Source: an uncultured Prochlorococcus sp. (GTDB lineage Bacteria; Cyanobacteriota; Cyanobacteriia; PCC-6307; Cyanobiaceae). Taken from it: DNA of 64,000 bases. How positions within the stretch are numbered: the stretch's first letter is position 1; each line of letters opens with the position of its first letter. The stretch is taken from positions 15,895-79,894 of the forward strand of contig CACOIV010000002.1 in NCBI GenBank assembly GCA_902627335.1. The letters are read 5' to 3'. Below, one piece after another: positions 43,175-54,362 of the stretch. Made by a program: the position numbers and the translations under genes. Below the pieces are notes generated by a model. That model saw only the letters and a list, made by a program, of their open reading frames with translations. It searched no databases and had not been told where the DNA came from.

Positions 43175-43220
43175 AAAACCCCTTGTCATTTGGTCGGTAA
43201 AAGAGTTAGGTTTTTATTAT

Positions 43221-43292
43221 TCCTCGGTAGCTCAGCGGTAGAGCGATCGGCTGTTAACCGATTGGTCGCAGGTTCGAATCCCGCCCGGGGAG
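43221..43292 (+). tRNA. trnN: tRNA-Asn (GTT)
   Basis: TCCTCGG/CCGGGGA acceptor stem, D arm GCTC..GAGC, anticodon loop CTGTTAA, T loop GGTTCGAATCC; CCA not encoded. Confidence 0.97.
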
Positions 43293-43295
43293 TTT
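43282..43295 (+). repeat. att core copy 1 (attL, overlaps tRNA 3' end)
   Basis: CGCCCGGGGAGTTT, identical at 44434 and 45078. Confidence 0.9.
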
Positions 43296-43317
43296 CATAA
43301 CAGTTTCAAACACTTCC

Positions 43318-43343
43318 AGAGACTTTCACAAGTCTCTTTTTTT
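43318..43343 (+). terminator. rho-independent terminator on element arm
   Basis: AGAGACTT-TCAC-AAGTCTCT then T run. Confidence 0.85.
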
Positions 43344-43416
43344 GTGGGTATATATGTGATTTAAGAGAAAAGACTCTTCCAGAACCTTCCATCAGTATGC
43401 ACCATTTTTAAAAAAA

Positions 43417-43455
43417 TGTTCGGGGTATGTTCGGGATTTTTTTTAAATGTTCGGG
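43417..43455 (+). repeat. TGTTCGGG x3, putative integrase arm-type sites
   Basis: copies at 43417, 43428, 43448. Confidence 0.8.
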
Positions 43456-43479
43456 ATATATTCAGAAAATTAGTCTTTT

Positions 43480-44280
43480 TTATAATTTTTCATATTTCTT
43501 TGAATTTGGGTTATAGAAATATTTTTCATTTATATCAATTACAAGCAAGTGCCATCCATTTTTTTTATTTTTTAAAACCCCAATTCTTTTTGGATTGAAA
43601 TTCATCTCAATTTTATAATTATTCTCTGATTGGATGAAGCATTTATTAAAACGACCCCATCTATCCCAATAAGTGCAAGAGATTGTTTCTTCTTCTTTAT
43701 CATTATTGAGGTCATAAATCAATGAGGTTTTAGTGTAGTGAGGTGCATTAAATTTTAAGTTTGAAGTCCTGATTTCTGAAATCGCTTTAATTTCTTTTTG
43801 GTTTCGATTTGATAGGAGGTATAAATTTTCTCCAGAAAATAAATATTCAACCTTATTCACTTTTAATTCAGTATTAAAAAATCCTTCATGATGGTTTGTA
43901 GCGTAAATTATTAGTCCTTTATTTGTAGTTTTAAAATTTATCCCTTCCCAACCATTCCATACTCCTGTAAATTCATTGAATTCATATTTTTTGCCGATAC
44001 ATTTTGAATTAAAGAAAATCATCTCTAAATCAGGAGCATTTGAGTTCCCTCCGTCTGTTCTTGTGATTAAAATTTCCTTTTTTTTGTCATTATTAATATC
44101 TAAAACATCTTTACTCCAAATCGGAAATTTTCTTTTTTTGGTTTTCTTTATAGTTAAATTTTTTAACTCATTTTTAATTGATTCTTTACATTCCTTATTT
44201 GCTAAGAAATCAGATTTTGCGGGGTAAATAAATCCAGAAATTATTATAGATAAAAAAATTTTTATAATATGCTTAATCAA
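43480..44280 (-). CDS. secreted hypothetical protein with FG-GAP/VCBS-like DxNxDxxxE loops (cargo of element 1)
   Basis: N-terminal signal peptide; LDINNDKKKEILI and YDLNNDKEEETI. Confidence 0.7.
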   Translation of the reverse strand: MIKHIIKIFLSIIISGFIYPAKSDFLANKECKESIKNELKNLTIKKTKKRKFPIWSKDVLDINNDKKKEILITRTDGGNSNAPDLEMIFFNSKCIGKKYEFNEFTGVWNGWEGINFKTTNKGLIIYATNHHEGFFNTELKVNKVEYLFSGENLYLLSNRNQKEIKAISEIRTSNLKFNAPHYTKTSLIYDLNNDKEEETISCTYWDRWGRFNKCFIQSENNYKIEMNFNPKRIGVLKNKKNGWHLLVIDINEKYFYNPNSKKYEKL

Positions 44281-44340
44281 AATACATGTTTAATTTAGAT
44301 CCTGATAATTACAAAATCTTTTTATCTAAGCAACTAGAAA

Positions 44341-44360
44341 TGTTCGGGATTATGTTCGGG
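44341..44360 (+). repeat. TGTTCGGG x2, putative arm-type sites
   Basis: copies at 44341 and 44353; last ends 73 bp before core 2. Confidence 0.8.
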
Positions 44361-44433
44361 GTATCGTCTTGTATATCATTAAATACCCTTCCTAACCCTT
44401 TCTTGCGAGTGCATTTGGAACTTATTATACATT

Positions 44434-44447
44434 CGCCCGGGGAGTTT
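44434..44447 (+). repeat. att core copy 2 (attP-like junction, arms on both sides)
   Basis: CGCCCGGGGAGTTT. Confidence 0.9.
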
Positions 44448-44469
44448 CTAATCACTTTCACAAACTTGC

Positions 44470-44495
44470 AGAGACTTTCATAAGTCTCTTTTTTT
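44470..44495 (+). terminator. rho-independent terminator, paralog of 43318
   Basis: AGAGACTT-TCAT-AAGTCTCT then T run. Confidence 0.85.
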
Positions 44496-44566
44496 GTGTC
44501 TATGAATAGTTCTTTCACAAAATGCCTTTCAGAACGTATCAAAAATATTCACTATTTTTTCAAAAA

Positions 44567-44607
44567 TGTTCGGGTAATGTTCTGGTTTAAATAAAATTAT
44601 GTTCGGG
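44567..44607 (+). repeat. TGTTC(G/T)GG x3, putative arm-type sites
   Basis: copies at 44567, 44578, 44600. Confidence 0.78.
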
Positions 44608-44628
44608 TAAAAACTTAATATGTTCTAC

Positions 44629-44871
44629 TTACTTTCCAACACATGGTGCTGATTCATATTCCTTGATGTATTTAAATAATCTAGTTTGTCTTTTTACTAA
44701 AAGTATTATTAAAGGAATGAATCCAATAATAACAAAACAAAGAAGGACAGAAATAATTAACCAAAGTGCTTCTATAAGTGCTGCTTTATCTTTCCCTAAA
44801 TAAGAAAGATCTAAAAAAAAGAAAAATAATATGATTTTTATAATTGCTTTTTTTTCTTCTCTTTGAAACAT
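44629..44871 (-). CDS. small membrane protein (cargo of element 2)
   Basis: 80 aa; hydrophobic LWLIISVLLCFVIIGFIPLIILL. Confidence 0.55.
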   Translation of the reverse strand: MFQREEKKAIIKIILFFFFLDLSYLGKDKAALIEALWLIISVLLCFVIIGFIPLIILLVKRQTRLFKYIKEYESAPCVGK

Positions 44872-44975
44872 TAGAAAATTTGATAATTAATTTAAATTAT
44901 CCTTTATTTGAAAATATGCAAATATGCAAATATGATGTTGTTAAAAATATAGTTGCAAATTTTTCGATTAAAAAA

Positions 44976-45004
44976 GTTCGGGTAATGTTCGGGTAATGTT
45001 CGGG
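44976..45004 (+). repeat. (T)GTTCGGGTAA tandem x3, putative arm-type sites
   Basis: 11-bp period; last ends 73 bp before core 3. Confidence 0.82.
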
Positions 45005-45077
45005 TAAGGGTCGTTATATGTAAAGAAATACCTTTCAAATCCTTTCATACCATTGCATTATGGACTTGTTCGGAACT

Positions 45078-45091
45078 CGCCCGGGGAGTTT
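45078..45091 (+). repeat. att core copy 3 (attR)
   Basis: CGCCCGGGGAGTTT; within AACTC-GCCCGGG-GAGTT inverted symmetry. Confidence 0.9.
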
Positions 45092-45112
45092 ATATGTCTT
45101 GAAAAGCCATAC

Positions 45113-45137
45113 AAAGTCACCCTTAGGTGACTTTTTT
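45113..45137 (+). terminator. rho-independent terminator, probably the displaced earlier tRNA-Asn terminator
   Basis: AAAGTCACC-CTTA-GGTGACTTT-TTT. Confidence 0.82.
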
Positions 45138-45281
45138 GTTCCTTTCACAAGGTTATGAGAGAAAAATGTCTAGATGAATGCTGAAATTGTAGTGCAATTC
45201 TATTGGTCCATTATTTGTCTTTTGGTGAAAATATTCGTTCATTTATGATTTTTTTCTTAGGTATCTGAGATCATTTGAATT

Positions 45282-45704
45282 ATGAAAATAAACTTTTATA
45301 AAAGTCTTCTACCTTATCTACCTTGGTTAACTTTTATCTTTGGGATATTTCACTTAATGGGTGATTTAGGAAGGCAAAGTGGATATGGTCAACTTTGGAA
45401 TGTTGGTTTATTCATCGCGCTCTTATCTCAACAATATTGTCAAAGAAAAGGAGCATTTAAATTTCATTTATTATTGAGTAATTACAATCTAAATTCTGAT
45501 ATATCAACTATATTTGGATATTTTTTAGGGTTTTTATTATGGGGTGCAAGTTCTCAATATCTTTTCATAGATATTCTTGTGAAATATAGAGATTTAATCC
45601 CATCATTTATAGAACCATTTCTGTATCTAATTGGGATCTTTGTTTTATTTATTGGTTCTTTTTTCCCTTTTTATGAGGGTAAAAATAAAAGTTTAGATCA
45701 ATAA
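45282..45704 (+). CDS. hypothetical membrane protein (about 4 TM)
   Basis: 140-aa hydrophobic ORF. Confidence 0.65.
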   Translation: MKINFYKSLLPYLPWLTFIFGIFHLMGDLGRQSGYGQLWNVGLFIALLSQQYCQRKGAFKFHLLLSNYNLNSDISTIFGYFLGFLLWGASSQYLFIDILVKYRDLIPSFIEPFLYLIGIFVLFIGSFFPFYEGKNKSLDQ

Positions 45705-45714
45705 AAAATTTAAA

Positions 45715-45873
45715 TTAATAAACTTTGCAGTGAGCACTAGTTGGATGATCAATACACTCTTTATCCCAGTAATTTTGCTTGGCTTCTTTAGGTAGTTTGT
45801 AATTAAAATCATGCATTCTCCAAATATCAGAAGTTGCATTTTTTAGAACGTTGAACGGAGTAGCGAGTTTCAT
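45715..45873 (-). CDS. CP12-like small protein (52 aa), not in ORF track
   Basis: AGGAGG RBS; MKLATPFNVLKNATSDIWRMHDFNYKLPKEAKQNYWDKECIDHPTSAHCKVY*; C-terminal Cx8C-xxY. Confidence 0.75.
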   Translation of the reverse strand: MKLATPFNVLKNATSDIWRMHDFNYKLPKEAKQNYWDKECIDHPTSAHCKVY

Positions 45874-45984
45874 AAGACCTCCTATTGTTGTTCTACTCCA
45901 TTATTATCCTTCTATTCTCTTGGATTTTATAGAGTGTTTCTACTTAATTGAAAATGCTTTTATTTCTAAGATATTTATTTGCAT

Positions 45985-46077
45985 AAAAAAGACCCCTAAT
46001 TATAGAGGTCTTTTCTGGTTTTACTGAATCAAGTGTTTCCTTGTTTCCACTGTTTCAATAAAACCTCTCCTTCACAC
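45985..46077 (-). ncRNA. yfr2: Yfr2-family sRNA
   Basis: 5' GUGUGAAGGAG, central GUGGAAACAAGGAAACAC, terminator GACCUCU..AGGGGUC-U6, TATTAT -10 box upstream. Confidence 0.88.
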
Positions 46078-46166
46078 AATCTGATAATACAGGAATTAGT
46101 TTTTGAGGAAATATTAGGAGTCAGGTAATTAAATTGGCACATATGAGTAAGACTTAAAAATTAAGT

Positions 46167-46246
46167 CACTAAAAAACACCCTAATCTTTTAAATCAGGGC
46201 GTTTAGTGATCAGAAATTAATTTATGAGGAGTTTTCTGATGTTATT
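46167..46246 (-). ncRNA. candidate Yfr1/Yfr10-like sRNA (ends approximate)
   Basis: hairpin AUCAGAAA..UUUCUGAU with ACUCCUCAUA in the loop, then terminator AAACGCCCUGAU..AUUAGGGUGUUUUUU. Confidence 0.45.
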
Positions 46247-46271
46247 AATCTAATCTTAAAATTATTTGTCC

Positions 46272-46454
46272 TCACTCACAATAGATTAAACAATGGTTAT
46301 AAGTTGGATTTACCATGCATTCTTTTTCCCAGAAATTCCTAATTTCAGGTGGACATTTCTCAAGTTCTTTTGGAGTTTTCTTCATTTTTTCTCCTGCATA
46401 ATTAAATGCATTTAAGTATCTTGGAAGGATTGAGAATTGATTCAATAGTTTTAT
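46272..46454 (-). CDS. CP12-like small protein, paralog 2 (ATA at the start position, or internal ATG 46385)
   Basis: same AGGAGGTCTT RBS; ...MKKTPKELEKCPPEIRNFWEKECMVNPTYNHCLIYCE*. Confidence 0.65.
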   Translation of the reverse strand: MKLLNQFSILPRYLNAFNYAGEKMKKTPKELEKCPPEIRNFWEKECMVNPTYNHCLIYCE

Positions 46455-46566
46455 AAGACCTCCTAGATCTATGCTTTAATTATCCTCCTATTATTATTAA
46501 ATTTAAGGGTCGGTTTTAGGAACAAGAACGCATGTGTTAATGACTAATCAATTTAGAAATAATAGA

Positions 46567-46761
46567 TTACACATATCCATTACTAATACTTTGATTTTCT
46601 TTTTCACAATACATAATACAAGGATCAGATTTAAACATTTTTCTATAGTCATCATGTAATCTTTTAGTTGCAGATTTTTCTTTTGAATTGATTGCATTTC
46701 TTATGAAATCCATTTCGTTTAATTTTCGATTAAGAATTGTGAAAGGAGTAGTTAGTTTCAT
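46567..46761 (-). CDS. degenerate paralog 3 of the CP12-like family
   Basis: MKLTTPF N-terminus shared with paralog 1; CIMYCE similar to CLIYCE of paralog 2. Confidence 0.6.
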   Translation of the reverse strand: MKLTTPFTILNRKLNEMDFIRNAINSKEKSATKRLHDDYRKMFKSDPCIMYCEKENQSISNGYV

Positions 46762-47170
46762 AAGTTCCCCAAGATCTTTTTTATATTGTCGCTCGATTTG
46801 TATTAGATTTGTAGAGTGTTTTTGCTCAAGTAATAATGCTTTGGGTTCTAATCATTATATTTTTCGATTTGATAGGAGTCAGAAGAATACAGGAGTCAGA
46901 GGAACTTCAAACATTTAGGAAAATAAGGTTTAAAACTCGAAATGGGCAAACATATGCCACTTTATTTTTATGAACTTTTAATCTGATTATCAAATAGATT
47001 TTCTTCTATTAATTTTTCAAGAGATCCCCCCTGTAAATGGTTTTAAAAATAAAATATGTTTACTTTATTTAATTTGTTTATATCTTAAGTTGATATTGTT
47101 TGGTCTTAAATCGATCAGTTTTTTTAATTTTAAATTATTTGTACTAGATTTATTTAAATAAATGAATAGA

Positions 47171-47275
47171 ATGGAATTTATCACACCTCAAATTGCAATT
47201 GGATTATTACTAATAAGTATCGGATTAGTTAGTAAATTTGATATTAAATTTGAAATTTTTAAAGAAAAAGAGTAA
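47171..47275 (+). CDS. small single-TM protein (34 aa)
   Basis: MEFITPQIAIGLLLISIGLVSKFDIKFEIFKEKE*. Confidence 0.45.
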   Translation: MEFITPQIAIGLLLISIGLVSKFDIKFEIFKEKE

Positions 47276-47404
47276 AAATTTAAATTTGTAAAATAAAACT
47301 ATTAATTATTTATCAAGAGCAAATTTGCAAATGCTTAATATTCTATGTTTATTAGACATGGGAAATTATTTAAAGTATAAATAGATAAATTTTTTAAGGA
47401 CATT

Positions 47405-47698
47405 ATGTTTGTAAGCATTGATTTATGCCTTGTGCCAATTGGAGTTGGAACTTCTTTATCTCCTTATATCAAAGAATGTAAAAAAATTATTGAGACATAT
47501 GATTTAACTTATGAATTAGGTGCAAATGGGACAGCAATAGAGGGAGATTGGTCAGAAGTATTTGAATGTATTAGACAATGTCATGAACAAATTCATGAGC
47601 AAGGTGCTCCTAGGATTTATACAACAATAAAAGTAAATACAAGAATTGACAAGAAGCAAACCTTTGCAGAAAAATTAAAAAGCGTATTAGATAATTAA
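47405..47698 (+). CDS. MTH1187/YkoF-like thiamine-binding protein
   Basis: LVPIGVGTSLSPYI, GTAIEGDW, CHE, RIDK. Confidence 0.88.
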   Translation: MFVSIDLCLVPIGVGTSLSPYIKECKKIIETYDLTYELGANGTAIEGDWSEVFECIRQCHEQIHEQGAPRIYTTIKVNTRIDKKQTFAEKLKSVLDN

Positions 47699-47803
47699 AC
47701 TATACTAATTAAATTGAATACTTATCTTATAGTAGATTTTTTGGTGGTTTGATAATTATTACATTGATCAACTAAAATTTAATAGAATAAAGAAAGGTGA
47801 TTT

Positions 47804-48124
47804 TTGATGAATAAATACACAAATGTTGAAGTTAGTAAATTAGCAAATATTTATTTTGAAGGTAAAGTTATTAGTCGGAATATATTTTTTAAAGATGGTT
47901 CCAAAAAAACTTTAGGAGTAATGTTTGTTGGTGAATATGAATTCAAAACCATATCAAGAGAAATCATGGAAATTATATCTGGAAAATTAAATTTTAAAGT
48001 TGATGGCACTGATAATTGGCAATTGATAAAAGAAGGTATGAGCTTTAATGTTCCTAAAAAATCTTCATTCAAAGTAAAGGTTTTAGAGTTAGTACAGTAC
48101 AGTTGTTCTTATATTGAAGAGTAA
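47804..48124 (+). CDS. ppnP: pyrimidine/purine nucleoside phosphorylase (DUF1255)
   Basis: ANIYFEGKV.SR, KTLGVM, EIMEI.SG, F.VP..S.F, YxCxY. Confidence 0.88.
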   Translation: MMNKYTNVEVSKLANIYFEGKVISRNIFFKDGSKKTLGVMFVGEYEFKTISREIMEIISGKLNFKVDGTDNWQLIKEGMSFNVPKKSSFKVKVLELVQYSCSYIEE

Positions 48125-48164
48125 AAAAATGCAAAAAAATTAATTTAGTTAGTTTGTTTTTTAA

Positions 48165-48569
48165 CTATATATTATTCTCTCTCATTCTCATTTTATAGAA
48201 ACTCTCTTCGCATCTAACTAATATTCCTTTATAGCCTTCTGGAAAGTAATTAATATATTGATCTAATGTGATTTTATCTGGAAAAATTCCTTTTACAAGA
48301 AAAACAACTTTTTTATCTTTTTGAATTACAAAATGAGGTGGTAAATTTTTCATTAATTCTCTCCAGGTTTTATCTGAAGCAATAATTCCTTTATAGTCAT
48401 CAGGAAAGTGTTCTCTCATAATTGGTTTCACTGCAAGTGTTGCAGGGAACCCAGAGATTATATGAAAATAAACTAATTTTTTTTTATCTAAAACAATATG
48501 TGGAAAAGGAATTGGATTTTTACCATATTTTTTTTTATATTCGTTTGTGAATTTGGATTTCCTTTGCAT
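48165..48569 (-). CDS. hypothetical protein with internally duplicated domain
   Basis: PHIVL..FPDDYKGII / PHFVI..FPEGYKGIL. Confidence 0.7.
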   Translation of the reverse strand: MQRKSKFTNEYKKKYGKNPIPFPHIVLDKKKLVYFHIISGFPATLAVKPIMREHFPDDYKGIIASDKTWRELMKNLPPHFVIQKDKKVVFLVKGIFPDKITLDQYINYFPEGYKGILVRCEESFYKMRMRENNI

Positions 48570-48585
48570 TCTTATTGGAATTATC

Positions 48586-48780
48586 TTACTTATAGTTTTG
48601 ATCTTTTAATTTATTGAAAATACACTTACTTTTTATAGTCATACCTTTGTAGCCAGTTAAATTCAAATTGTCCATCCATAATTTAATATCTAAGCTTGAA
48701 TTATATTCTTTAGACAAATAAAATATTACTTCTTTAGTCGATTGTAAAATTATATGAGGTGGTATTTTTATTGTTTCCAT
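48586..48780 (-). CDS. hypothetical protein, single copy of the same domain
   Basis: PPHIIL..KEVIF..GYKGM. Confidence 0.65.
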   Translation of the reverse strand: METIKIPPHIILQSTKEVIFYLSKEYNSSLDIKLWMDNLNLTGYKGMTIKSKCIFNKLKDQNYK

Positions 48781-49072
48781 AAAGTTATAGTATTATACAT
48801 TTTTTCTAAAATGGTGTTCATTTTTTGATCTGAGAACAAAAATGTTTTTGGACTAACTAAGCAATATCAGGAAAAAATCCATAAATTAATTTTTTTTGGA
48901 CTTCTTAAAACTTCTCTTTTTACTCTCTTTACTTGAGTTTGACTAGTTGTTTCTGAATCTTCCAGGAATAATATGAACATATTGTTTTGAATAGAATCTT
49001 GCTTCAAAAACATTTTTCACAATAATAGTACATTAGTATTATTGCTCTTAAATCTTTATTTGGGAAGTGAAT

Positions 49073-49675
49073 TTAATGTGTACGTAGTCTTTTGGTTATT
49101 TTCCCAGGCGTTTTTTGTATCTTTTTAATTTTTTTTCCAAAGTATTCTAGATGGCAAACCCATTCAAAAAAGTCATTCCCAGTATCTAATTTATTTGTAT
49201 AAATATCTAATTTTTTTGGTTCAAATAATTCTCCTTTCAAGAATGTTAATTCTCCATAAATTCCTTTCCAGTCTTCTTGATACTCTAAATAATATTCATC
49301 ATCATCATATTCCCAATGATTAATGCATTTCCTAGGAATTTTTTCAAATGAATTAGTAAGTACTAGGTCTTCAGGATTTAAATCACCACGATAAATTCCT
49401 AATTTTTTTAATTGCTTAAACTCAAATAGCTCTCTTTCTTGTGTATTAAGATTTTCTAATATAATGCTCATTGTATTAGAAAAGCTTAAGTATTTATTTT
49501 CTAACACTAATTTTCCTTCCTCTAATTCAAAATCTTCCTCATCCAAAATTGCACTATTACATGCATGTCTTCCAATATATTCAAGCGAAATTTTGCCTGT
49601 GTACCATCCATTTCCAATTATTGATAACTTTCTATTTGAGTTTTTATTATTAACAATCATAAGTTTTGTTTTCAC
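49073..49675 (-). CDS. hypothetical protein
   Basis: 200-aa ORF, acidic and aromatic, no motif recognised. Confidence 0.55.
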   Translation of the reverse strand: MKTKLMIVNNKNSNRKLSIIGNGWYTGKISLEYIGRHACNSAILDEEDFELEEGKLVLENKYLSFSNTMSIILENLNTQERELFEFKQLKKLGIYRGDLNPEDLVLTNSFEKIPRKCINHWEYDDDEYYLEYQEDWKGIYGELTFLKGELFEPKKLDIYTNKLDTGNDFFEWVCHLEYFGKKIKKIQKTPGKITKRLRTH

Positions 49676-50155
49676 CTAATATTTTCGTAATTAATTAAAT
49701 ATAAAATTTTATTTATTATCTGTAAAAAATAATAGTACTTTAAATTTTTTATATTTCCATTATAAAGCCTATATTAATTATTTTCTGTAAAAGTTGATGT
49801 TTATAAACTCTTTTTAATCCCTTATAGCTTCACCAATAGTTACTTTTTTATACTATTCCTCTAATAATATTTTTTGTGTATTTAACTTTCCATTTTTAAA
49901 AATTTTTTATTTCAAATGAATTTCTATTCTTAGCGGTAATCTATAAGTTTTTAACTTAATTATTGATTTATTAAGAAAGATTTTTTAAATGATTTAAATT
50001 TATCAAAGTCATTAATTTTAATTTTTATCAATTTTAATAATATAAATTATCTTTTTAGTTATTCAGATTATGCTTATGAATCATTTAAGAATTAATTTAT
50101 TTAAGAAGTTTATAATAAATATAATTAAGTTAATTTAAGACATTTAATTGTAAAA

Positions 50156-50920
50156 ATGCATTTGCCAATACAAAATCAAACCGTCTTTATTTCAGGATCT
50201 GGGAGAGGTCTTGGGTCTGAAATCGCTAAATCCTTTTATAGGGAAGGTGCAAGGGTAATAATAAATTACAGAAAATCAAGAAAAAATGCAGAAGAATTAG
50301 CTGATGAATTTGGTAAAAACGCTTTTTTATTAAAAGGAGATATTAGGAATAAAGATGAAGTTTTGAATATGCAAAGAGAACTAAATGATAATCAAATTAG
50401 CATTACTACAATTATTCATAATGCGATAAATGACTATAGTTTTAATGGCGAAAAAAGAAAGAAAATCGACGAAATTTCGTGGGTTGATTTTCAAGGGCAA
50501 ATAGAAACTTCTCAGAAAGGTTTATTAAATTTAATACAAGTTTTTACTCCTAGCATGAGAGAAAATCAGTTTGGAAGAGTGATAACAATTGGAACAAATT
50601 TATTTCAGAATCCAGTTGTTCCTTATCATGACTATACTGCCTCAAAAGGTGGACTTTTGTCTTTAACAAGAACTGCTGCCATAGATTTGGGACCTGATAA
50701 TATCACGGTAAATATGGTGTCTGGGGGATTATTAAAAATTACAGATGCGAGTAAAGCTACTCCTGAAAGTGTTTTTGATTATATTGCAGGTATCACTCCT
50801 CTAAGAAAAATTACTACCACGAAAGATTTTGCAGATGCAGTTTTATTTTTTGCATCTCCTTGGGCTAGAGCAGTAACTGGCCAAAACTTAATAGTGGATG
50901 GAGGATTGGTATTAAATTAA
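50156..50920 (+). CDS. SDR family oxidoreductase (3-oxoacyl-ACP reductase-like)
   Basis: SGSGRGLG, IGTNLFQNPVVPYHDYTASK, TGQNLIVDGG. Confidence 0.9.
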   Translation: MHLPIQNQTVFISGSGRGLGSEIAKSFYREGARVIINYRKSRKNAEELADEFGKNAFLLKGDIRNKDEVLNMQRELNDNQISITTIIHNAINDYSFNGEKRKKIDEISWVDFQGQIETSQKGLLNLIQVFTPSMRENQFGRVITIGTNLFQNPVVPYHDYTASKGGLLSLTRTAAIDLGPDNITVNMVSGGLLKITDASKATPESVFDYIAGITPLRKITTTKDFADAVLFFASPWARAVTGQNLIVDGGLVLN

Positions 50921-50952
50921 TCAAAATAAACCTCTTTTAGCTTGTTGTATTC

Positions 50953-51807
50953 ATGATTGATCTAAAAAGAAATAGTAAAAAAGAATTGGTTATCGCTCAT
51001 GGTTTAAGAACAAAATCATCATCCATTTACTCTCCTAATCAAAAAGGTGATTTTAAAATTAGTAGAGGGAAATTTTTTAATTTTTTATGCTGTAAAAGGT
51101 GTTTCTATCTTGATCGAATAAAAGGTTTAGAATCACCTGGTATGCCAGGCTGGTCTTTAAACGAAACTACAGATTTGCTCTTAAAAAAAGAATTTGATTA
51201 TTGTAGAGAAAGGCAAATTCCACATCGTTTATTCATATCAAATAATTTAGATAATTTAGTTCCTTTTTATCATGATGAACTTGATAATTGGAGAGATTCC
51301 TTGCACAAAGGTTTAACACTCCGATATAAAAAAACGAATATTATTTTAACTGGAGGAATTGATGATATCTGGCAAAATAAAATCTCTAAGAAATTAATAA
51401 TTGTGGATTATAAATCTCAAGCCAAAATGGGTCGTTTAGATAAAATTAATTATCTACAAGATCCATATCATGAAGGATATAAAATACAGATGGATTTTTA
51501 TGCATATCTTCTTTTAGGCATGGGATTTAAATTGGACACAACTTCATATTTTCTGGTGTGTAATGCTAAAAGAGATGATGAGGTTTTCGATAAAACTTTG
51601 AATTTTGATGAGTATTTAGTTCCATATTTTTGGAATATTAATTGGATCGAAAATAAGTTAGAAGAAATGATCAATGTAATGAATAGTACAGAAATACCTA
51701 AATCAAATTTTTCTTGTAAAAACTGTGCTTACTCAGAGCAATATGCCAAAACAATATATAAAGAAATTAATCTTGATAAGAGTGTAATTCAAGGAAGTCT
51801 TTTTTAG
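50953..51807 (+). CDS. PD-(D/E)XK nuclease, Cas4/AddB-like
   Basis: CKRCFYL, GGIDD, IVDYKS, QMDFY, CKNCAY. Confidence 0.85.
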   Translation: MIDLKRNSKKELVIAHGLRTKSSSIYSPNQKGDFKISRGKFFNFLCCKRCFYLDRIKGLESPGMPGWSLNETTDLLLKKEFDYCRERQIPHRLFISNNLDNLVPFYHDELDNWRDSLHKGLTLRYKKTNIILTGGIDDIWQNKISKKLIIVDYKSQAKMGRLDKINYLQDPYHEGYKIQMDFYAYLLLGMGFKLDTTSYFLVCNAKRDDEVFDKTLNFDEYLVPYFWNINWIENKLEEMINVMNSTEIPKSNFSCKNCAYSEQYAKTIYKEINLDKSVIQGSLF

Positions 51808-51966
51808 TTTTTTGCTAAATATAAGTAGTTTTTATGATAATTTTTAGAAATAATTTTTAAAGTATTCAATGGGGCGGTAATACGTAGTTAGAAAATATAT
51901 CTTCTGATAATAAATCTCATAAATTATTATGTCCCATAAAATAAATTAAATTTATAGCGAATTAAC

Positions 51967-52000
51967 AGAACAGTTATTAGAACGATTAAAAGAACGGTTA
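51967..52000 (+). repeat. three AGAACRRTTA direct repeats at 12-bp period
   Basis: AGAACAGTTA 51967, AGAACGATTA 51979, AGAACGGTTA 51991. Confidence 0.7.
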
Positions 52001-52115
52001 ATGGAGCATAAGATTAATTTTTTGATCTTAAATGCCTTAAAATTCAGTAAATTAATTTTAAAGTTTCGATATTAGATAGATATTTCTCATCTTTATATAT
52101 ATATTTGAAATAGCT

Positions 52116-52814
52116 TTGTATAGTCTAATCAAAAATCCTGTCGTTATCTTGGGTGGTTTTCTTGTTACTTCAGAGGCATATTTAAATATACAAAATTTTT
52201 TAGAAAATAATTGTAATAGAAAGGTATATATAGTAAATATAACTAGAATTGATTGGTTAAATTCTAGTAGTGTTAAAGGTTGGATTAATATTCTAGATAA
52301 AGTTCAGGAAACTGTTTCTAAAGTTTTGTGTGATACGAAAACTGAAAAAATTGATTTTATTGGCCATAGCTCTGGTGGAATTATGCTTAGACTTTATCTC
52401 TCAGATCAACTGTTTGGAGGTAAGAAATACAATGGAAAATCAATTACTGAAAACTTAATTACGCTAGGTAGCCCTAATCAAGCATTAAGAGCTACAAAGT
52501 TAAGAAAATTTGTTGATATGGAATATCCTGGAAGTTTTTTTAACGAAGTTAATTATATTTCTGTAGGAGGGGTAGTAGATATTCGATCAAAGGAAGCTTA
52601 CTTTTTAACAAGATTTTCAGCGCGTCGTTCATATGAATCAATTTCTGGTGATTTTAATAGTGAGGGTGATGGATTGGTTCCCTTATCCTCATCTTTATTG
52701 GAAGGTTCTAATAAAGTAATTCTTCCAGATACATTTCATGGAGGTATATTTGGAGAATTTTGGTATGGTTCTAAATCTAGGGTGATGGATTGGTGGAGAA
52801 GAATCAAGCTCTAA
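52116..52814 (+). CDS. alpha/beta hydrolase (lipase/esterase)
   Basis: GHSSGG nucleophile elbow, TLGSP, GDGLVP, H. Confidence 0.88.
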   Translation: MYSLIKNPVVILGGFLVTSEAYLNIQNFLENNCNRKVYIVNITRIDWLNSSSVKGWINILDKVQETVSKVLCDTKTEKIDFIGHSSGGIMLRLYLSDQLFGGKKYNGKSITENLITLGSPNQALRATKLRKFVDMEYPGSFFNEVNYISVGGVVDIRSKEAYFLTRFSARRSYESISGDFNSEGDGLVPLSSSLLEGSNKVILPDTFHGGIFGEFWYGSKSRVMDWWRRIKL

Positions 52815-52989
52815 ATTTTTTTCAAAAAATTTTTGTTTATTGGAGGGATTGAATAATTTCTTTCTAAAAATACTTAAGTTCTTAAATGAGTTTTAAAGCT
52901 ACTAAAATACATAAATTTGTAACTTTGCATGCGATAGCTCATGAATAATTTTTTTATAAACTATGTTTTAGTAGAATGAAGTCTGTGAA

Positions 52990-53241
52990 ATGCATTTAGA
53001 AAAACACTCAAAAGTTGAGCTTGATTGGAATATGAAAGAATTTAAAGAATATGTTTATTCACATTTTGGTAAAGGAGGGATTGAAGATATTGGTGCAACA
53101 AAAGAACAGATTGATTTAGCAACTTTAAAGGTAATTGAATACTGTTTAGAGGCAGGGGAATCGGATATCCAAGGAGTTTTCTCTTCTGATCTGAATTTAA
53201 TCAAAGAAATTTTGTTGAAAGATTTCGATTTAAGCTGCTAG
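52990..53241 (+). CDS. hypothetical protein
   Basis: 83-aa ORF. Confidence 0.6.
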   Translation: MHLEKHSKVELDWNMKEFKEYVYSHFGKGGIEDIGATKEQIDLATLKVIEYCLEAGESDIQGVFSSDLNLIKEILLKDFDLSC

Positions 53242-53245
53242 AAAT

Positions 53246-53428
53246 TTAACTTATTTGAAATTTTTTATTAATAAAAGCAGATTCAGTTTGAACTTTAAGT
53301 TTTTCAAAATAATTTTGCTGCGTTTGATTTCCTGAAGAACATTTAATTCCAAAAAGAAGGCTCATATCAATATCATTAAATAATTTTTTATTTGAATTTT
53401 GAAATGCTTTTTTATAAATCATTTTCAT
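53246..53428 (-). CDS. hypothetical small protein
   Basis: 60-aa ORF convergent with neighbour. Confidence 0.5.
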   Translation of the reverse strand: MKMIYKKAFQNSNKKLFNDIDMSLLFGIKCSSGNQTQQNYFEKLKVQTESAFINKKFQIS

Positions 53429-53664
53429 AACGGTTAGATAGATTACTAGAATGCCAATTGATTCATTTAATTTATAGAGTCAAAATACTTAGTGGTATCA
53501 AAAATTTATTTATATGTATCTTTGGATAGTAAAATTTAAAATATTAATACAATTTAAAGATAATATAAATTATCTTTTTCTTGAAAAAGATTATTGTTTA
53601 CATTAATAGTCTTATTGATTAACTATTTATTTGATTAATAAATTTTAAAATATCCCCTGTTAAT

Positions 53665-53678
53665 TGTCACATGTGACA
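53665..53678. promoter_or_regulatory. perfect palindrome upstream of Yfr2
   Basis: TGTCACATGTGACA centred about 65 nt upstream of the inferred TSS. Confidence 0.6.
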
Positions 53679-53736
53679 GTTGAATTAGATAAACATTCCA
53701 TAAACACCTTTTAATTATCGCGGCTATATTAAATGA

Positions 53737-53829
53737 GTGTGTAGGAGTAAGTTGTAAATTCAGTGGAAACATGGAAACACTTGAATTTATAATTTTTAAA
53801 AACTCATCTGATAAGATGAGTTTTTTTTT
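53737..53829 (+). ncRNA. yfr2: Yfr2-family sRNA (second copy)
   Basis: 5' GUGUGUAGGAG, central GUGGAAACAUGGAAACAC, terminator AAAAACUCAUCU..AGAUGAGUUUUU, TATATT -10 box. Confidence 0.88.
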
Positions 53830-54002
53830 GCAAAATTTTAAATTAGAAGATAAATATCTAAAGCTACTAAAAATCTTCATAATGGTGTATGTTTCGTTTA
53901 AAAAATAGAAAAATTAAAGCGTTGATAGTATATAACTGAAATTTCTTTTGATAATAAAAATTGATTTTTGTAATTGCGTAGAACTTTAATAGATTATTAA
54001 AA

Positions 54003-54362
54003 CTAATCTATCCACATATCTATTTTTTCATTTTTAATCTCATTTGTATCTAGCTCACTTACATGAGATGTACCTGTTTTTGATTCAACTGTATAATCTT
54101 TTTGGGTTGCTTCAAATTTTTTTTTGATTCCTTCTAAAATAAATTCAAAATTATCGCTAAAGAAATTTTCTATTTCTTCCCAAGCTTCCTTTTCTTCTTC
54201 ATCTCCTATGGTGTTTTTGACTTGATGACTGAAAATTTCATTAGCAAATTGTCTTAATTCAGACTCATTCATACTTTTTACTTTTTCAGTTATGTAATAT
54301 TCTTTAAGACTTTCAAGTTCTTTTTTTGAAAAATCTGAATAATAAAATTTGTTCTTTTTCAT
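54003..54362 (-). CDS. conserved hypothetical protein
   Basis: 119-aa acidic ORF. Confidence 0.7.
   Translation of the reverse strand: MKKNKFYYSDFSKKELESLKEYYITEKVKSMNESELRQFANEIFSHQVKNTIGDEEEKEAWEEIENFFSDNFEFILEGIKKKFEATQKDYTVESKTGTSHVSELDTNEIKNEKIDMWID

What the first reader, a model, noticed from the sequence alone, without database searches (positions are those of the whole stretch)
43282..45137. Tandem array of integrase-less single-gene mini-elements at tRNA-Asn (attL - attP-like junction - attR)
Seen: the core CGCCCGGGGAGTTT occurs at 43282, 44434 and 45078. Cores 1 and 2 are followed by a homologous right arm (AGAGACTT hairpin terminator, then 3 TGTTCGGG-type repeats starting 135 and 133 bp after the core start). 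Cores 2 and 3 are preceded by a homologous left arm (TGTTCGGG repeats, exactly 73 bp, then core). Core 1 has the tRNA on its left; core 3 has an unrelated terminator on its right. Each unit holds one different gene and no recombinase. Established: B-O-P', P-O-P' and P-O-B' is what successive integration of tyrosine-integrase elements at one tRNA produces, and Prochlorococcus islands are built by tRNA-targeting elements (tycheposons). Inference: these are 1152- and 644-bp non-autonomous cassettes with both arms intact, mobilised in trans, forming an integron-like cassette stack. The arms are visibly diverged between copies, which argues for independent arrivals rather than local duplication.
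Basis: partly seen in the sequence, partly recalled or inferred. Interest (0 to 1): 0.92.

Follow-up and report, generated by a model that had tools for sequence, protein, structure and literature searches.

The report
Integrase-less mini-elements stacked at tRNA-Asn
Downstream of the tRNA-Asn gene of this Prochlorococcus genome sit two tiny single-gene DNA cassettes that keep both integration arms but have no integrase. One of them is almost identical in a very distant strain, so they look like hitch-hiking mobile cassettes that shuffle single genes between cells.

Summary
The same design recurs widely. About 66 of 285 Prochlorococcus species genomes have two or more cores, and only 2 of 48 core-to-core units examined carry an integrase. 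Each unit's two arms share a short repeat motif (more than 10 motif types), which covaries with the integrase N-terminus in the autonomous relatives. Those relatives encode an AlpA-type excisionase, a tyrosine integrase and a small serine recombinase. A cognate integrase-bearing element of the TGTTCGGGT type exists in metagenomes; none was found in this 86%-complete genome.

Unit 2 is 95-98% identical to a unit in strain MIT0604, whose flanking core genes are about 68-70% identical. The identity stops exactly at both cores, and the neighbouring units differ.

One correction: core 3 is not attR. It is followed by the decayed right arm of a third unit type (TATTCGTC) that elsewhere carries the Yfr10 and Cyano-1 sRNA genes.

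These are CIME-like non-autonomous elements of the "cryptic" class, not tycheposons in the strict sense. Mobilisation by an integrase in trans or in cis is inferred, not shown.

The parts
43220..43293 (+). tRNA-Asn (GTT), the integration target. Its last 12 nt form part of the core.
   Evidence: ARAGORN; Rfam tRNA, 66.7 bits
43282..43295 (+). Core 1 (attL-type junction: tRNA side, core, right arm of unit 1)
   Evidence: Exact 14-mer, 3 copies against 0.03 expected
43296..43465 (+). Right (P') arm of unit 1. Terminator hairpin at 43318-43337. Three TGTTCGGG(G/A) repeats at 43416-43424, 43427-43435 and 43447-43455.
   Evidence: Homologous arms lie next to the tRNA in G051, G116, G227, G089 and metagenome contigs.
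43480..44280 (-). Cargo of unit 1: a 266-aa predicted secreted all-beta protein of unknown function.
   Evidence: ORF. No Pfam match. 23 homologues at 46-95% identity with conserved length. AlphaFold model pLDDT 80 with only weak propeller-like matches. The DNA is 88-91% identical to units in G051 and G229, whose flanks are 68-70% identical.
44340..44433 (+). Left (P) arm of unit 1. Two ATGTTCGGG repeats (44340-44348, 44352-44360), then 73 bp to the core.
44434..44447 (+). Core 2 (attP-like hybrid junction between units 1 and 2)
44448..44620 (+). Right (P') arm of unit 2. Hairpin at 44470-44489. Repeats at 44566-44574, 44577-44585 (TGTTCTGG variant) and 44599-44607.
   Evidence: 97% identical to G044 (MIT0604) 148471-148655.
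44629..44871 (-). Cargo of unit 2: an 80-aa small hydrophobic (probable membrane) protein.
   Evidence: ORF. 18 homologues at 64-94% identity, all 76-80 aa. Annotated as MIT0604_00165 in MIT0604.
44974..45077 (+). Left (P) arm of unit 2. Three (A/T)GTTCGGGT repeats (44974-44982, 44985-44993, 44996-45004), then 73 bp to the core.
   Evidence: Nearly identical to the left arm next to an integrase gene on metagenome contig L152.
45078..45091 (+). Core 3. The left arm of unit 2 is joined here to the right arm of a third unit type. It is not attR.
45092..45245 (+). Decayed right (P') arm of a TATTCGTC-type unit. Hairpin at 45113-45134. Degenerate repeats at about 45200-45219 and 45230-45240. No distal arm or core follows.
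   Evidence: 81% identical to G013 (L160) and 74-80% to the G008, G021 and G117 right arms. Terminator scan. No fourth core and no canonical native flank in the window.
46012..46240 (-). Cyano-1 (Yfr2-family) and Yfr10 sRNA genes. In G013 the same pair lies inside a complete 2176-bp TATTCGTC-type unit, directly after its right arm.
   Evidence: Rfam hits in the window and in L160 and L163. DNA homology of 45985-46242 to the L160 unit.

Best explanation
The window holds an accretion array at the tRNA-Asn attachment site. It consists of two complete integrase-less mini-elements (1152 and 644 bp) followed by the decayed start of a third.

Each mini-element is a reduced, non-autonomous relative (CIME-like) of small autonomous elements that integrate at the same 13-14 bp core. 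Those elements are 7-8 kb and encode an AlpA-type excisionase, a tyrosine integrase and a small serine recombinase.

A unit consists of:
- the core;
- a right arm, which supplies a new terminator for the tRNA and then about three short direct repeats roughly 135 bp from the core;
- zero to a few cargo genes;
- a left arm with about two of the same repeats, 73 bp before the next core.

The repeats are most likely arm-type binding sites for the integrase N-terminal domain. Their sequence is a specificity code that differs between element types while the core is shared.

The units entered this genome horizontally by site-specific recombination within the core. They entered either as small circles acted on by an integrase supplied in trans, or as passengers excised and integrated together with an adjacent autonomous element (cis-mobilisation). 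They now sit stranded because this genome has no cognate integrase.

Shown here: the anatomy, the matched arms, the autonomous relatives, the horizontal sharing with core-exact boundaries, and the positional shuffling.

Inferred: that the repeats bind the integrase, and that the mini-units themselves are excised and integrated.
For: (1) Anatomy: confirmed.

(2) The design is general.
- 231 of 285 genus genomes have the core and about 66 have two or more. Most spacings are 0.17-3.5 kb.
- Of 48 core-to-core units examined, only 2 carry an integrase.

(3) Arms match within a unit.
- 35 of 39 units of at least 400 bp share an 8-mer between their own right and left arms. Shuffled pairings give a mean of 15.9 and a maximum of 25.
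- More than 10 motif types were seen.

(4) Autonomous relatives use the same core and arm design.
- G211 carries a 7.9-kb element with an HTH_17 xis, a 424-aa tyrosine integrase and a resolvase.
- MIT0604 (G044) carries a 7.1-kb element.
- Seven more integrase genes lie beside a left arm and core.

(5) A cognate TGTTCGGGT-type integrase exists.
- Contigs L156, L145 and L152 carry an integrase 61-63% identical to the G211 one, next to a TGTTCGGGT left arm.
- L156 is a circular permutation of the G211 element across a left arm-core-right arm junction.

(6) Horizontal spread with core-exact boundaries.
- Window unit 2 versus MIT0604 148471-149106 is 95.4% identical including indels. The cargo is 97% identical.
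- Similarity ends at both cores, and the neighbouring units differ.
- The flanking core genes are only 68-70% identical.
- Unit 1 cargo is 88-91% identical to units in genomes whose flanks are 68-70% identical.

(7) Whole units occupy different array positions. Unit 1 of G008 equals unit 2 of G021 (97.6% versus 87% for the flank). Unit 1 of L148 equals unit 1 of G045 (98%).

(8) The integrase N-terminus covaries with the motif.
- Pairs with the same motif: 91-93% identity in the N-terminus.
- L059 versus L076: 93% in the catalytic part, 71% in the N-terminus, and different motifs.

(9) The empty site exists. About 65 genomes join the tRNA directly to the canonical flank.

(10) The units are rare in nature. 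In four marine metagenomes the summed contig depth is about 1-30 over the units and in the thousands over both flanks.

(11) The MIT0604 integrase next to the unit-2 copy is strongly induced by mitomycin C. Its log2 fold change is +8.5 in Supplementary Table 6 of bioRxiv 10.1101/2020.12.28.424599.
Against: - No excised circle or precisely emptied site of unit 1 or unit 2 was observed. The only left arm-core-right arm joint for unit 2 (one Logan contig, 43 nt on its shorter side) is equally explained by a TGTTCGGGT-type element lying next to a similar unit, as on contig L152.
- No cognate integrase was found in the window's own genome, which is 86% complete. No TGTTCGGGA-type integrase was found anywhere.
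- Some units are clearly decaying: missing or mutated distal cores and degenerate repeats (L044, L183, and the window's third arm).
- 12 integrase-less units still keep a xis gene beside the left arm. This shows an origin by deletion and is compatible with inert relics.
- Binding of the integrase to the repeats is inferred from position and covariation in only nine integrases. The N-terminal domain matches no Pfam family.
- My sample of units is enriched for TGTTCGGG types because of how it was fetched.
Confidence: 0.7

Rival explanations
1. Inert relics. Each unit is what remained after a full autonomous element integrated and then lost its integrase and most genes by deletion in place. The units no longer move. 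Their occurrence in other genomes reflects old vertical descent, or homologous recombination of larger DNA pieces.
For: - 12 integrase-less units keep a xis homologue exactly where autonomous elements have it.
- A cargo gene of the G211 element recurs in two short units.
- Cargo-less units of 169-280 bp look like deletions between the direct arm repeats.
- Decayed cores and arms exist.
- This genome has no cognate integrase.
Against: - Unit 2 is 95-98% identical between genomes whose adjacent core genes are 68-70% identical. The identity stops within the 13-bp core on both sides, and the neighbours have unrelated arm types. Homologous recombination therefore has no flanking homology to use.
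- No integrase fragments were found in 67 kb of integrase-less units.
- Both arms, with full repeat sets, are retained far more often than random decay predicts.
Confidence: 0.2
2. The short repeats are not integrase arm sites. They bind another element protein (for example the AlpA-type xis or a regulator), or they act as replication iterons. The units would then be regulatory or replicative modules kept for that reason.
For: - The repeats are phased at 11-12 bp, as iterons often are.
- Many short units retain xis.
- The integrase N-terminal domain matches no known arm-binding family.
Against: - The count and placement follow the classical arm-site layout of arm-binding tyrosine integrases: about 3 repeats at a fixed distance on one side of the core and about 2 at a fixed 73 bp on the other (my own knowledge of lambda-type attP, not tested here).
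- The motif covaries with the integrase N-terminus when the catalytic part is nearly identical.
- No replication gene was recognised in the autonomous elements.
Confidence: 0.15
3. Local tandem duplication of the tRNA 3' region, or a chance or assembly artefact.
For: Three identical 14-mers in direct orientation within 1.8 kb.
Against: - The cargo genes are unrelated and the arms are only 73-86% identical.
- Each unit has a closer relative in another genome than in its neighbour.
- The same architecture occurs in complete genomes and in independent metagenome assemblies.
Confidence: 0.02

Closest known systems
CIMEs (cis-mobilizable elements) and tandem accretion at tRNA genes, described for ICESt1/ICESt3-type elements of streptococci (definition in PMC5704250)
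   Same: Both have lost their integration genes but keep both att sites. Both lie in tandem with other elements at the 3' end of a tRNA gene. Both are thought to arise by decay of an autonomous element followed by integration of further elements at a hybrid att site.
   Different: Here the units are far smaller (0.17-3.5 kb, often one gene or none), far more numerous than their autonomous relatives, and come in more than 10 arm-repeat types that share one core. The parents are not conjugative elements. Cis-mobilisation has not been demonstrated.
'Cryptic' integrase elements of Prochlorococcus (groups with a tyrosine recombinase, a small serine recombinase and xis2; 'about 20 bp repeats next to tRNA') in Supplementary Table 5 of the tycheposon preprint, bioRxiv 10.1101/2020.12.28.424599
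   Same: Same host. The autonomous relatives found here carry a tyrosine integrase, a small serine recombinase and an AlpA/HTH_17-type xis, and they duplicate only a short stretch next to a tRNA. The MIT0604 copy's integrase is induced by mitomycin C in that study's table.
   Different: That work lists no tRNA-Asn target in the text or the supplement parts held. It excluded the cryptic elements from further analysis. In what I could read, it does not describe integrase-less mini-units, matched arm repeats or cargo-less units.
Tycheposons in the strict sense
   Same: tRNA-targeted, cargo-carrying elements that build Prochlorococcus islands. Tandem arrays separated by partial tRNA copies, and degenerate remnants, were reported.
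   Different: Tycheposons duplicate about 40 bp of partial tRNA, use seven other tRNA or tmRNA genes, and carry replication modules. Here the shared core is 13-14 bp, the target is tRNA-Asn, and no replication gene was recognised.
Integron gene-cassette arrays
   Same: Stacks of small, mostly single-gene, promoter-poor units, each bounded by recombination sites and handled by a tyrosine recombinase. Empty and shuffled positions occur.
   Different: There is no attC hairpin site and no adjacent intI-attI-Pc platform. The sites here are lambda-like, with a common core plus long arms, at a tRNA gene. The integrase lies on separate autonomous elements.

Membership tests
CIME-like non-autonomous integrative element | Bounded on both sides by att sites produced by site-specific integration | tested here: met
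   Identical cores at both ends of each unit, with homologous right and left arms. Arms are matched within units across 35 of 39 units.
CIME-like non-autonomous integrative element | Lacks its own integrase and transfer genes | tested here: met
   One ORF per unit with no Pfam recombinase. No integrase similarity in any integrase-less unit.
CIME-like non-autonomous integrative element | Derived from an autonomous element by deletion | tested here: inconclusive
   Related short units keep xis, or share cargo with autonomous elements. The window's own two units contain no remnant of element genes.
CIME-like non-autonomous integrative element | Can be excised or transferred by an integrase supplied by another element | not testable with these tools
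   Only indirect evidence: core-exact horizontal sharing and one ambiguous left arm-core-right arm contig joint.
Tycheposon (strict sense) | About 40 bp partial tRNA duplication at one of seven listed tRNA or tmRNA genes | tested here: not met
   The shared core is 13-14 bp, of which 12 nt belong to tRNA-Asn. tRNA-Asn is not among the listed targets.
Tycheposon (strict sense) | Replication module (primase, helicase or polymerase) in autonomous members | tested here: not met
   Pfam on ten ORFs of the G211 element found only xis, the integrase and a resolvase. Distant replication genes could have been missed.
Tycheposon (strict sense) | Integrase belongs to the tycheposon tyrosine-recombinase clades | not tested
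   The authors' profiles are not available here.
'Cryptic A'-type element of the tycheposon preprint | Tyrosine recombinase plus small serine recombinase plus xis2 (AlpA-like), with short repeats next to a tRNA | tested here: met
   Phage_integrase, Resolvase and HTH_17/Phage_AlpA hits in the G211 and L156 elements, with a short core duplication. This applies to the autonomous relatives, not to the window's units, and the match to the authors' own groups is by description only.
Integron cassette | attC recombination site and an intI-attI platform | tested here: not met
   The sites are core plus arms at a tRNA. There is no integrase next to the array, and none of this family in the genome.

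The most novel reading that the evidence does not exclude
Prochlorococcus has a true cassette system at tRNA-Asn. Mini-circles of 0.2-3 kb carry a full attP and nothing, one gene, or an sRNA pair. They are excised, exchanged between cells and re-integrated by integrases supplied by rare autonomous elements. A family of more than 10 arm-repeat 'codes' on one shared core decides which integrase can move which cassette. This would be an integron-like gene-shuffling mechanism built from lambda-type sites, and a route by which single flexible genes travel in a streamlined ocean bacterium.
Probability: 0.4. Interest if true: 0.85.

Novelty: new variant of a known kind. Interest (0 to 1): 0.7.

Why it matters
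How Prochlorococcus exchanges its many small flexible genes, without plasmids, conjugation or prophages, is only partly explained by tycheposons.

This locus shows a second layer. Arrays of integrase-less, att-complete mini-units greatly outnumber their autonomous relatives. They are shared almost unchanged between clades whose core genes are about 30% diverged. Their cargo includes single genes, sRNA genes, or nothing at all.

If the arm repeats are a specificity code read by the integrase N-terminus, the system is also a natural set of orthogonal recombinase-site pairs on one core.

It is directly testable. The cultured strain MIT0604 carries the same 0.6-kb unit next to a mitomycin-inducible integrase element.

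Tried and rejected
- **Viral contigs (IMG/VR).** A scan for paired TGTTCGGG repeats gave 57 hits. None had the core, and only three were AT-rich and unrelated in context. A protein-pattern scan with the L156 integrase found nothing.
- **Read laying on four marine metagenomes.**
  - No contig showed precise loss of unit 1 or unit 2.
  - One contig joint, 'goes back 644', is a left arm-core-right arm junction of the unit-2 type. It cannot distinguish a circle, a tandem copy, or a neighbouring element of the same type.
  - Several joints from a core to 45715 have unknown letters in between and were not interpretable.
- **Fourth core or native flank.** I looked for a fourth core, or the canonical native flank, at the far end of the 9-kb stretch that MIT0604 lacks (45092-54131). 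None was found.
- **Function of the 266-aa cargo.** No Pfam match. The AlphaFold model has pLDDT 80. Foldseek gave only generic beta-propeller matches at TM about 0.2, which I treat as uninformative.
- **Integrase N-terminal domain.** No Pfam match.
- **Literature.** No paper in the searchable library links Prochlorococcus or tycheposons with tRNA-Asn. The published journal version of the tycheposon study was not in the library.
- **Local duplication** was rejected; see the rival explanations.
Full report
**1. The observation**

The 14-mer CGCCCGGGGAGTTT occurs three times in the window (43282, 44434, 45078). All copies are on the + strand, and there is no other site at up to 2 mismatches; 0.03 are expected by chance. 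The first copy is the 3' end of tRNA-Asn(GTT), 43220-43293.

ATGTTCGGG occurs nine times, and only between 43416 and 45004; 0.1 are expected. The stretches after cores 1 and 2 are 76-86% identical. The stretches before cores 2 and 3 are 73% identical.

The repeats begin 135 and 133 bp after the core. Exactly 73 bp separate the last left-arm repeat from the core. Both right arms begin with a terminator-like hairpin.

The units are 1152 and 644 bp. Each has one minus-strand ORF, of 266 aa and 80 aa, with no Pfam match and no recombinase.

**2. The same architecture is widespread**

In 285 species-representative genomes of the genus, 231 have the core and about 66 have two to five copies. Most spacings are 0.17-3.5 kb.

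I fetched 60-odd loci from genomes and metagenomes. The plan is constant:
- the core;
- a hairpin;
- about 70 bp;
- about three short direct repeats;
- cargo;
- about two of the same repeats;
- about 73 bp;
- the next core.

The repeat motif differs between units. Types seen include TGTTCGGGA, TGTTCGGGT, CGTTCTGGT, ATGGTCGGGAA, ATGTTGGGAA, ATGGTGGGGAA, AGTTAGTGTAA, TGTTAGGGG, GTGCAGGTGA, TATTCGTC, TGTTCGCT and AATGTGTG.

The motif is the same on the two arms of one unit. 35 of 39 units share an 8-mer between their own arms, against a mean of 15.9 and a maximum of 25 in 2000 shuffled pairings. My sample is enriched for TGTTCGGG types, which inflates the shuffled figure rather than the observed one.

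Of 48 core-to-core units, only two contain an integrase. Several units are 169-280 bp and carry no cargo; in these the right-arm repeats run straight into the left arm.

About 65 genomes join the tRNA directly to a conserved flank. That flank is therefore the native empty site.

**3. Autonomous relatives**

- A 7.9-kb unit in G211 encodes an HTH_17 excisionase-like protein, a 424-aa tyrosine integrase and a resolvase-type small serine recombinase.
- A 7.1-kb unit lies next to the tRNA in G044.
- Seven further integrase genes lie 0.5-1.3 kb from a left arm and core. Each has its own repeat motif.
- A metagenome scan for the TGTTCGGG left arm plus core returned 18 contigs. Three of them (L156, L145, L152) carry an integrase 61-63% identical to the G211 one, right beside a TGTTCGGGT left arm.
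- The L152 left arm is almost the same as the one before window core 3.
- L156 is collinear with a circular permutation of the G211 element across a left arm-core-right arm junction. It is either an excised circle or a tandem copy.
- The L156 xis matches Phage_AlpA.

Among nine integrases, the first 105 residues track the motif. Pairs with the same motif are 91-93% identical there. L059 and L076 are 93% identical in the catalytic part but 71% in the N-terminus, and they have different motifs. This is suggestive evidence, from a small set, that the repeats are arm-type sites read by the N-terminal domain.

**4. Evidence that the mini-units move**

Window unit 2 aligns with G044 148471-149106 at 95.4% including two indels (one of them a repeat copy). 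The cargo is 97% identical. Similarity starts and stops inside the cores.

In G044, the unit's upstream neighbour is the ATGGTCGGGAA-type integrase element and its downstream neighbour is a 1.5-kb GTGCAGGTGA-type unit. In the window, the neighbours are unit 1 and a TATTCGTC-type arm. The core genes on either side of the locus are only 68-71% identical between the two genomes.

Unit 1's cargo is 88-91% identical to units in G051 and G229, whose flanks are about 68-70% identical. In G051 the unit is 2171 bp, with about 1 kb of extra cargo.

Other whole units sit at different positions in different arrays. Unit 1 of G008 equals unit 2 of G021 (97.6%, flank 87%). Unit 1 of contig L148 equals unit 1 of G045 (98%).

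The 80-aa cargo family also occurs in two other settings:
- at 79% identity, with the same upstream region but without any arms, at another chromosomal place;
- at 66% identity, in the opposite orientation, inside an AGTTAGTGTAA-type unit with a mutated distal core.

In four marine metagenomes the summed contig depth over both flanks is in the thousands and over the units about 1-30. The units are therefore rare variants (contig depth is only a rough guide).

**5. Origin by reduction**

No integrase fragment is detectable in 67 kb of integrase-less units. However, 12 of them keep a xis homologue exactly where autonomous elements have it, next to the left arm. One cargo gene of the G211 element recurs in two short units.

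The mini-units are therefore best seen as reduced derivatives of the autonomous elements, the definition of a CIME. Cargo-less units look like deletions between the direct arm repeats.

**6.

Core 3 is not attR. The 165 bp after it are 81% identical to the right arm of TATTCGTC-type units, including the hairpin and degenerate repeats in register.

In G013 such a unit is complete (2176 bp, both arms, then the native flank). It carries the Cyano-1 and Yfr10 sRNA genes directly after its right arm. The window has the same two sRNA genes at 46012-46240, but no distal arm, no fourth core and no native flank. So the array continues into a decayed third unit, and into about 9 kb of island DNA that MIT0604 lacks.

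The family is also not a tycheposon in the strict sense. Tycheposons duplicate about 40 bp of one of seven other tRNA or tmRNA genes and carry replication genes. The elements here fit the preprint's 'cryptic' class (tyrosine recombinase, small serine recombinase, xis2, about 20-bp repeats next to a tRNA), which the authors set aside.

**7. A link to published data**

G044 has the size and gene coordinates of MIT0604. The integrase I located at 146651-147889 is MIT0604_00163 (146645-147931).

In that study's mitomycin C table, MIT0604_00163 is induced by log2 8.5 and its neighbour MIT0604_00164 by 7.7. The mini-unit ORF MIT0604_00165 (148664-148906) is weakly expressed and is not induced. I take these numbers from the supplement as stored and did not re-analyse them.

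**8. What is not shown**

No circle or precise excision of either window unit was seen. One contig joint matching a 644-bp 'go-back' is ambiguous.

The window's genome (86% complete, 68 contigs) has no integrase of this family; it has only a conserved 389-aa one found also in other genomes. No TGTTCGGGA-type integrase was found.

Whether a mini-unit moves alone (in trans) or as a passenger of a neighbouring element (in cis) cannot be decided from sequence.

**9. Verdict**

This is a real, non-chance structure and a member of a large, apparently undescribed population of integrase-less att-complete mini-elements at tRNA-Asn. The kind of element (CIME, tandem accretion at a tRNA) is known. Three things are new:
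- the miniature scale and the dominance over autonomous forms;
- the multi-type arm code on one core;
- the demonstrated horizontal sharing in Prochlorococcus.

Noticed in passing
window 46012-46240 (-); L160 1149-1384: The Cyano-1 (Yfr2-family) and Yfr10 sRNA genes lie directly after a TATTCGTC-type right arm in the window, G013 and G021. In G013 they sit inside a complete core-bounded unit, so regulatory sRNA genes appear to travel as cassette cargo.
   Followed up: partly
L040 3132-3379; L039 8485-8712; L153 71-296; L155 69-349; L162, L164, L169, L172 and L173 units: Cargo-less units of 169-280 bp consist only of a right arm fused to a left arm between two cores. They are found for at least five repeat types. 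They are probably deletions between the direct arm repeats, but they would also be what an integrated attP-only mini-circle looks like.
   Followed up: partly
L042 3788-6282 (G227): One unit has mismatched arms: a TGTTCGGGA right arm and a CGTTCTGGT left arm. This suggests a deletion or recombination across two neighbouring units of different type.
   Followed up: no
L059 versus L076 integrases: The two integrases are 93% identical in the core-binding and catalytic part but 71% in the first 105 residues, and their arm motifs differ (ATGTTGGGAA versus ATGGTCGTGAA). This looks like an N-terminal domain swap that re-targets the arm specificity.
   Followed up: partly
L178-L182 (metagenome contigs, gene at L178 4001-4243): A 79%-identical homologue of the 80-aa cargo protein lies, with a similar upstream region but without cores or arms, between a prepilin-peptidase gene and hypothetical genes. 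This may be the chromosomal source of the cargo, or a copy that has lost its arms.
   Followed up: partly
window 45092-54131: About 9 kb after core 3 has no counterpart in MIT0604, where homology to the window resumes 466 bp after the last core. The stretch holds a 140-aa ORF very abundant in metagenomes, small ORFs, the sRNA genes, and genes for Thiamine_BP, Ppnp, a short-chain dehydrogenase and a PD-(D/E)XK nuclease. Several metagenome contigs break homology at 45715.
   Followed up: partly
L082 9890-9908 (IMG/VR contig, 33% GC): A TGTTCGGGTAGTGTTCGGGTAA pair lies directly after a terminator hairpin at the very end of an AT-rich viral contig, with no core in the stored stretch. It could be chance, or a phage-borne arm.
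   Followed up: no
G044 (MIT0604) 141370-150603: A four-core array in a cultured strain: tRNA, a 7.1-kb integrase element (mitomycin-induced in published data), a 623-bp unit, a 1.5-kb unit, then the native flank. This is a ready experimental system.
   Followed up: partly
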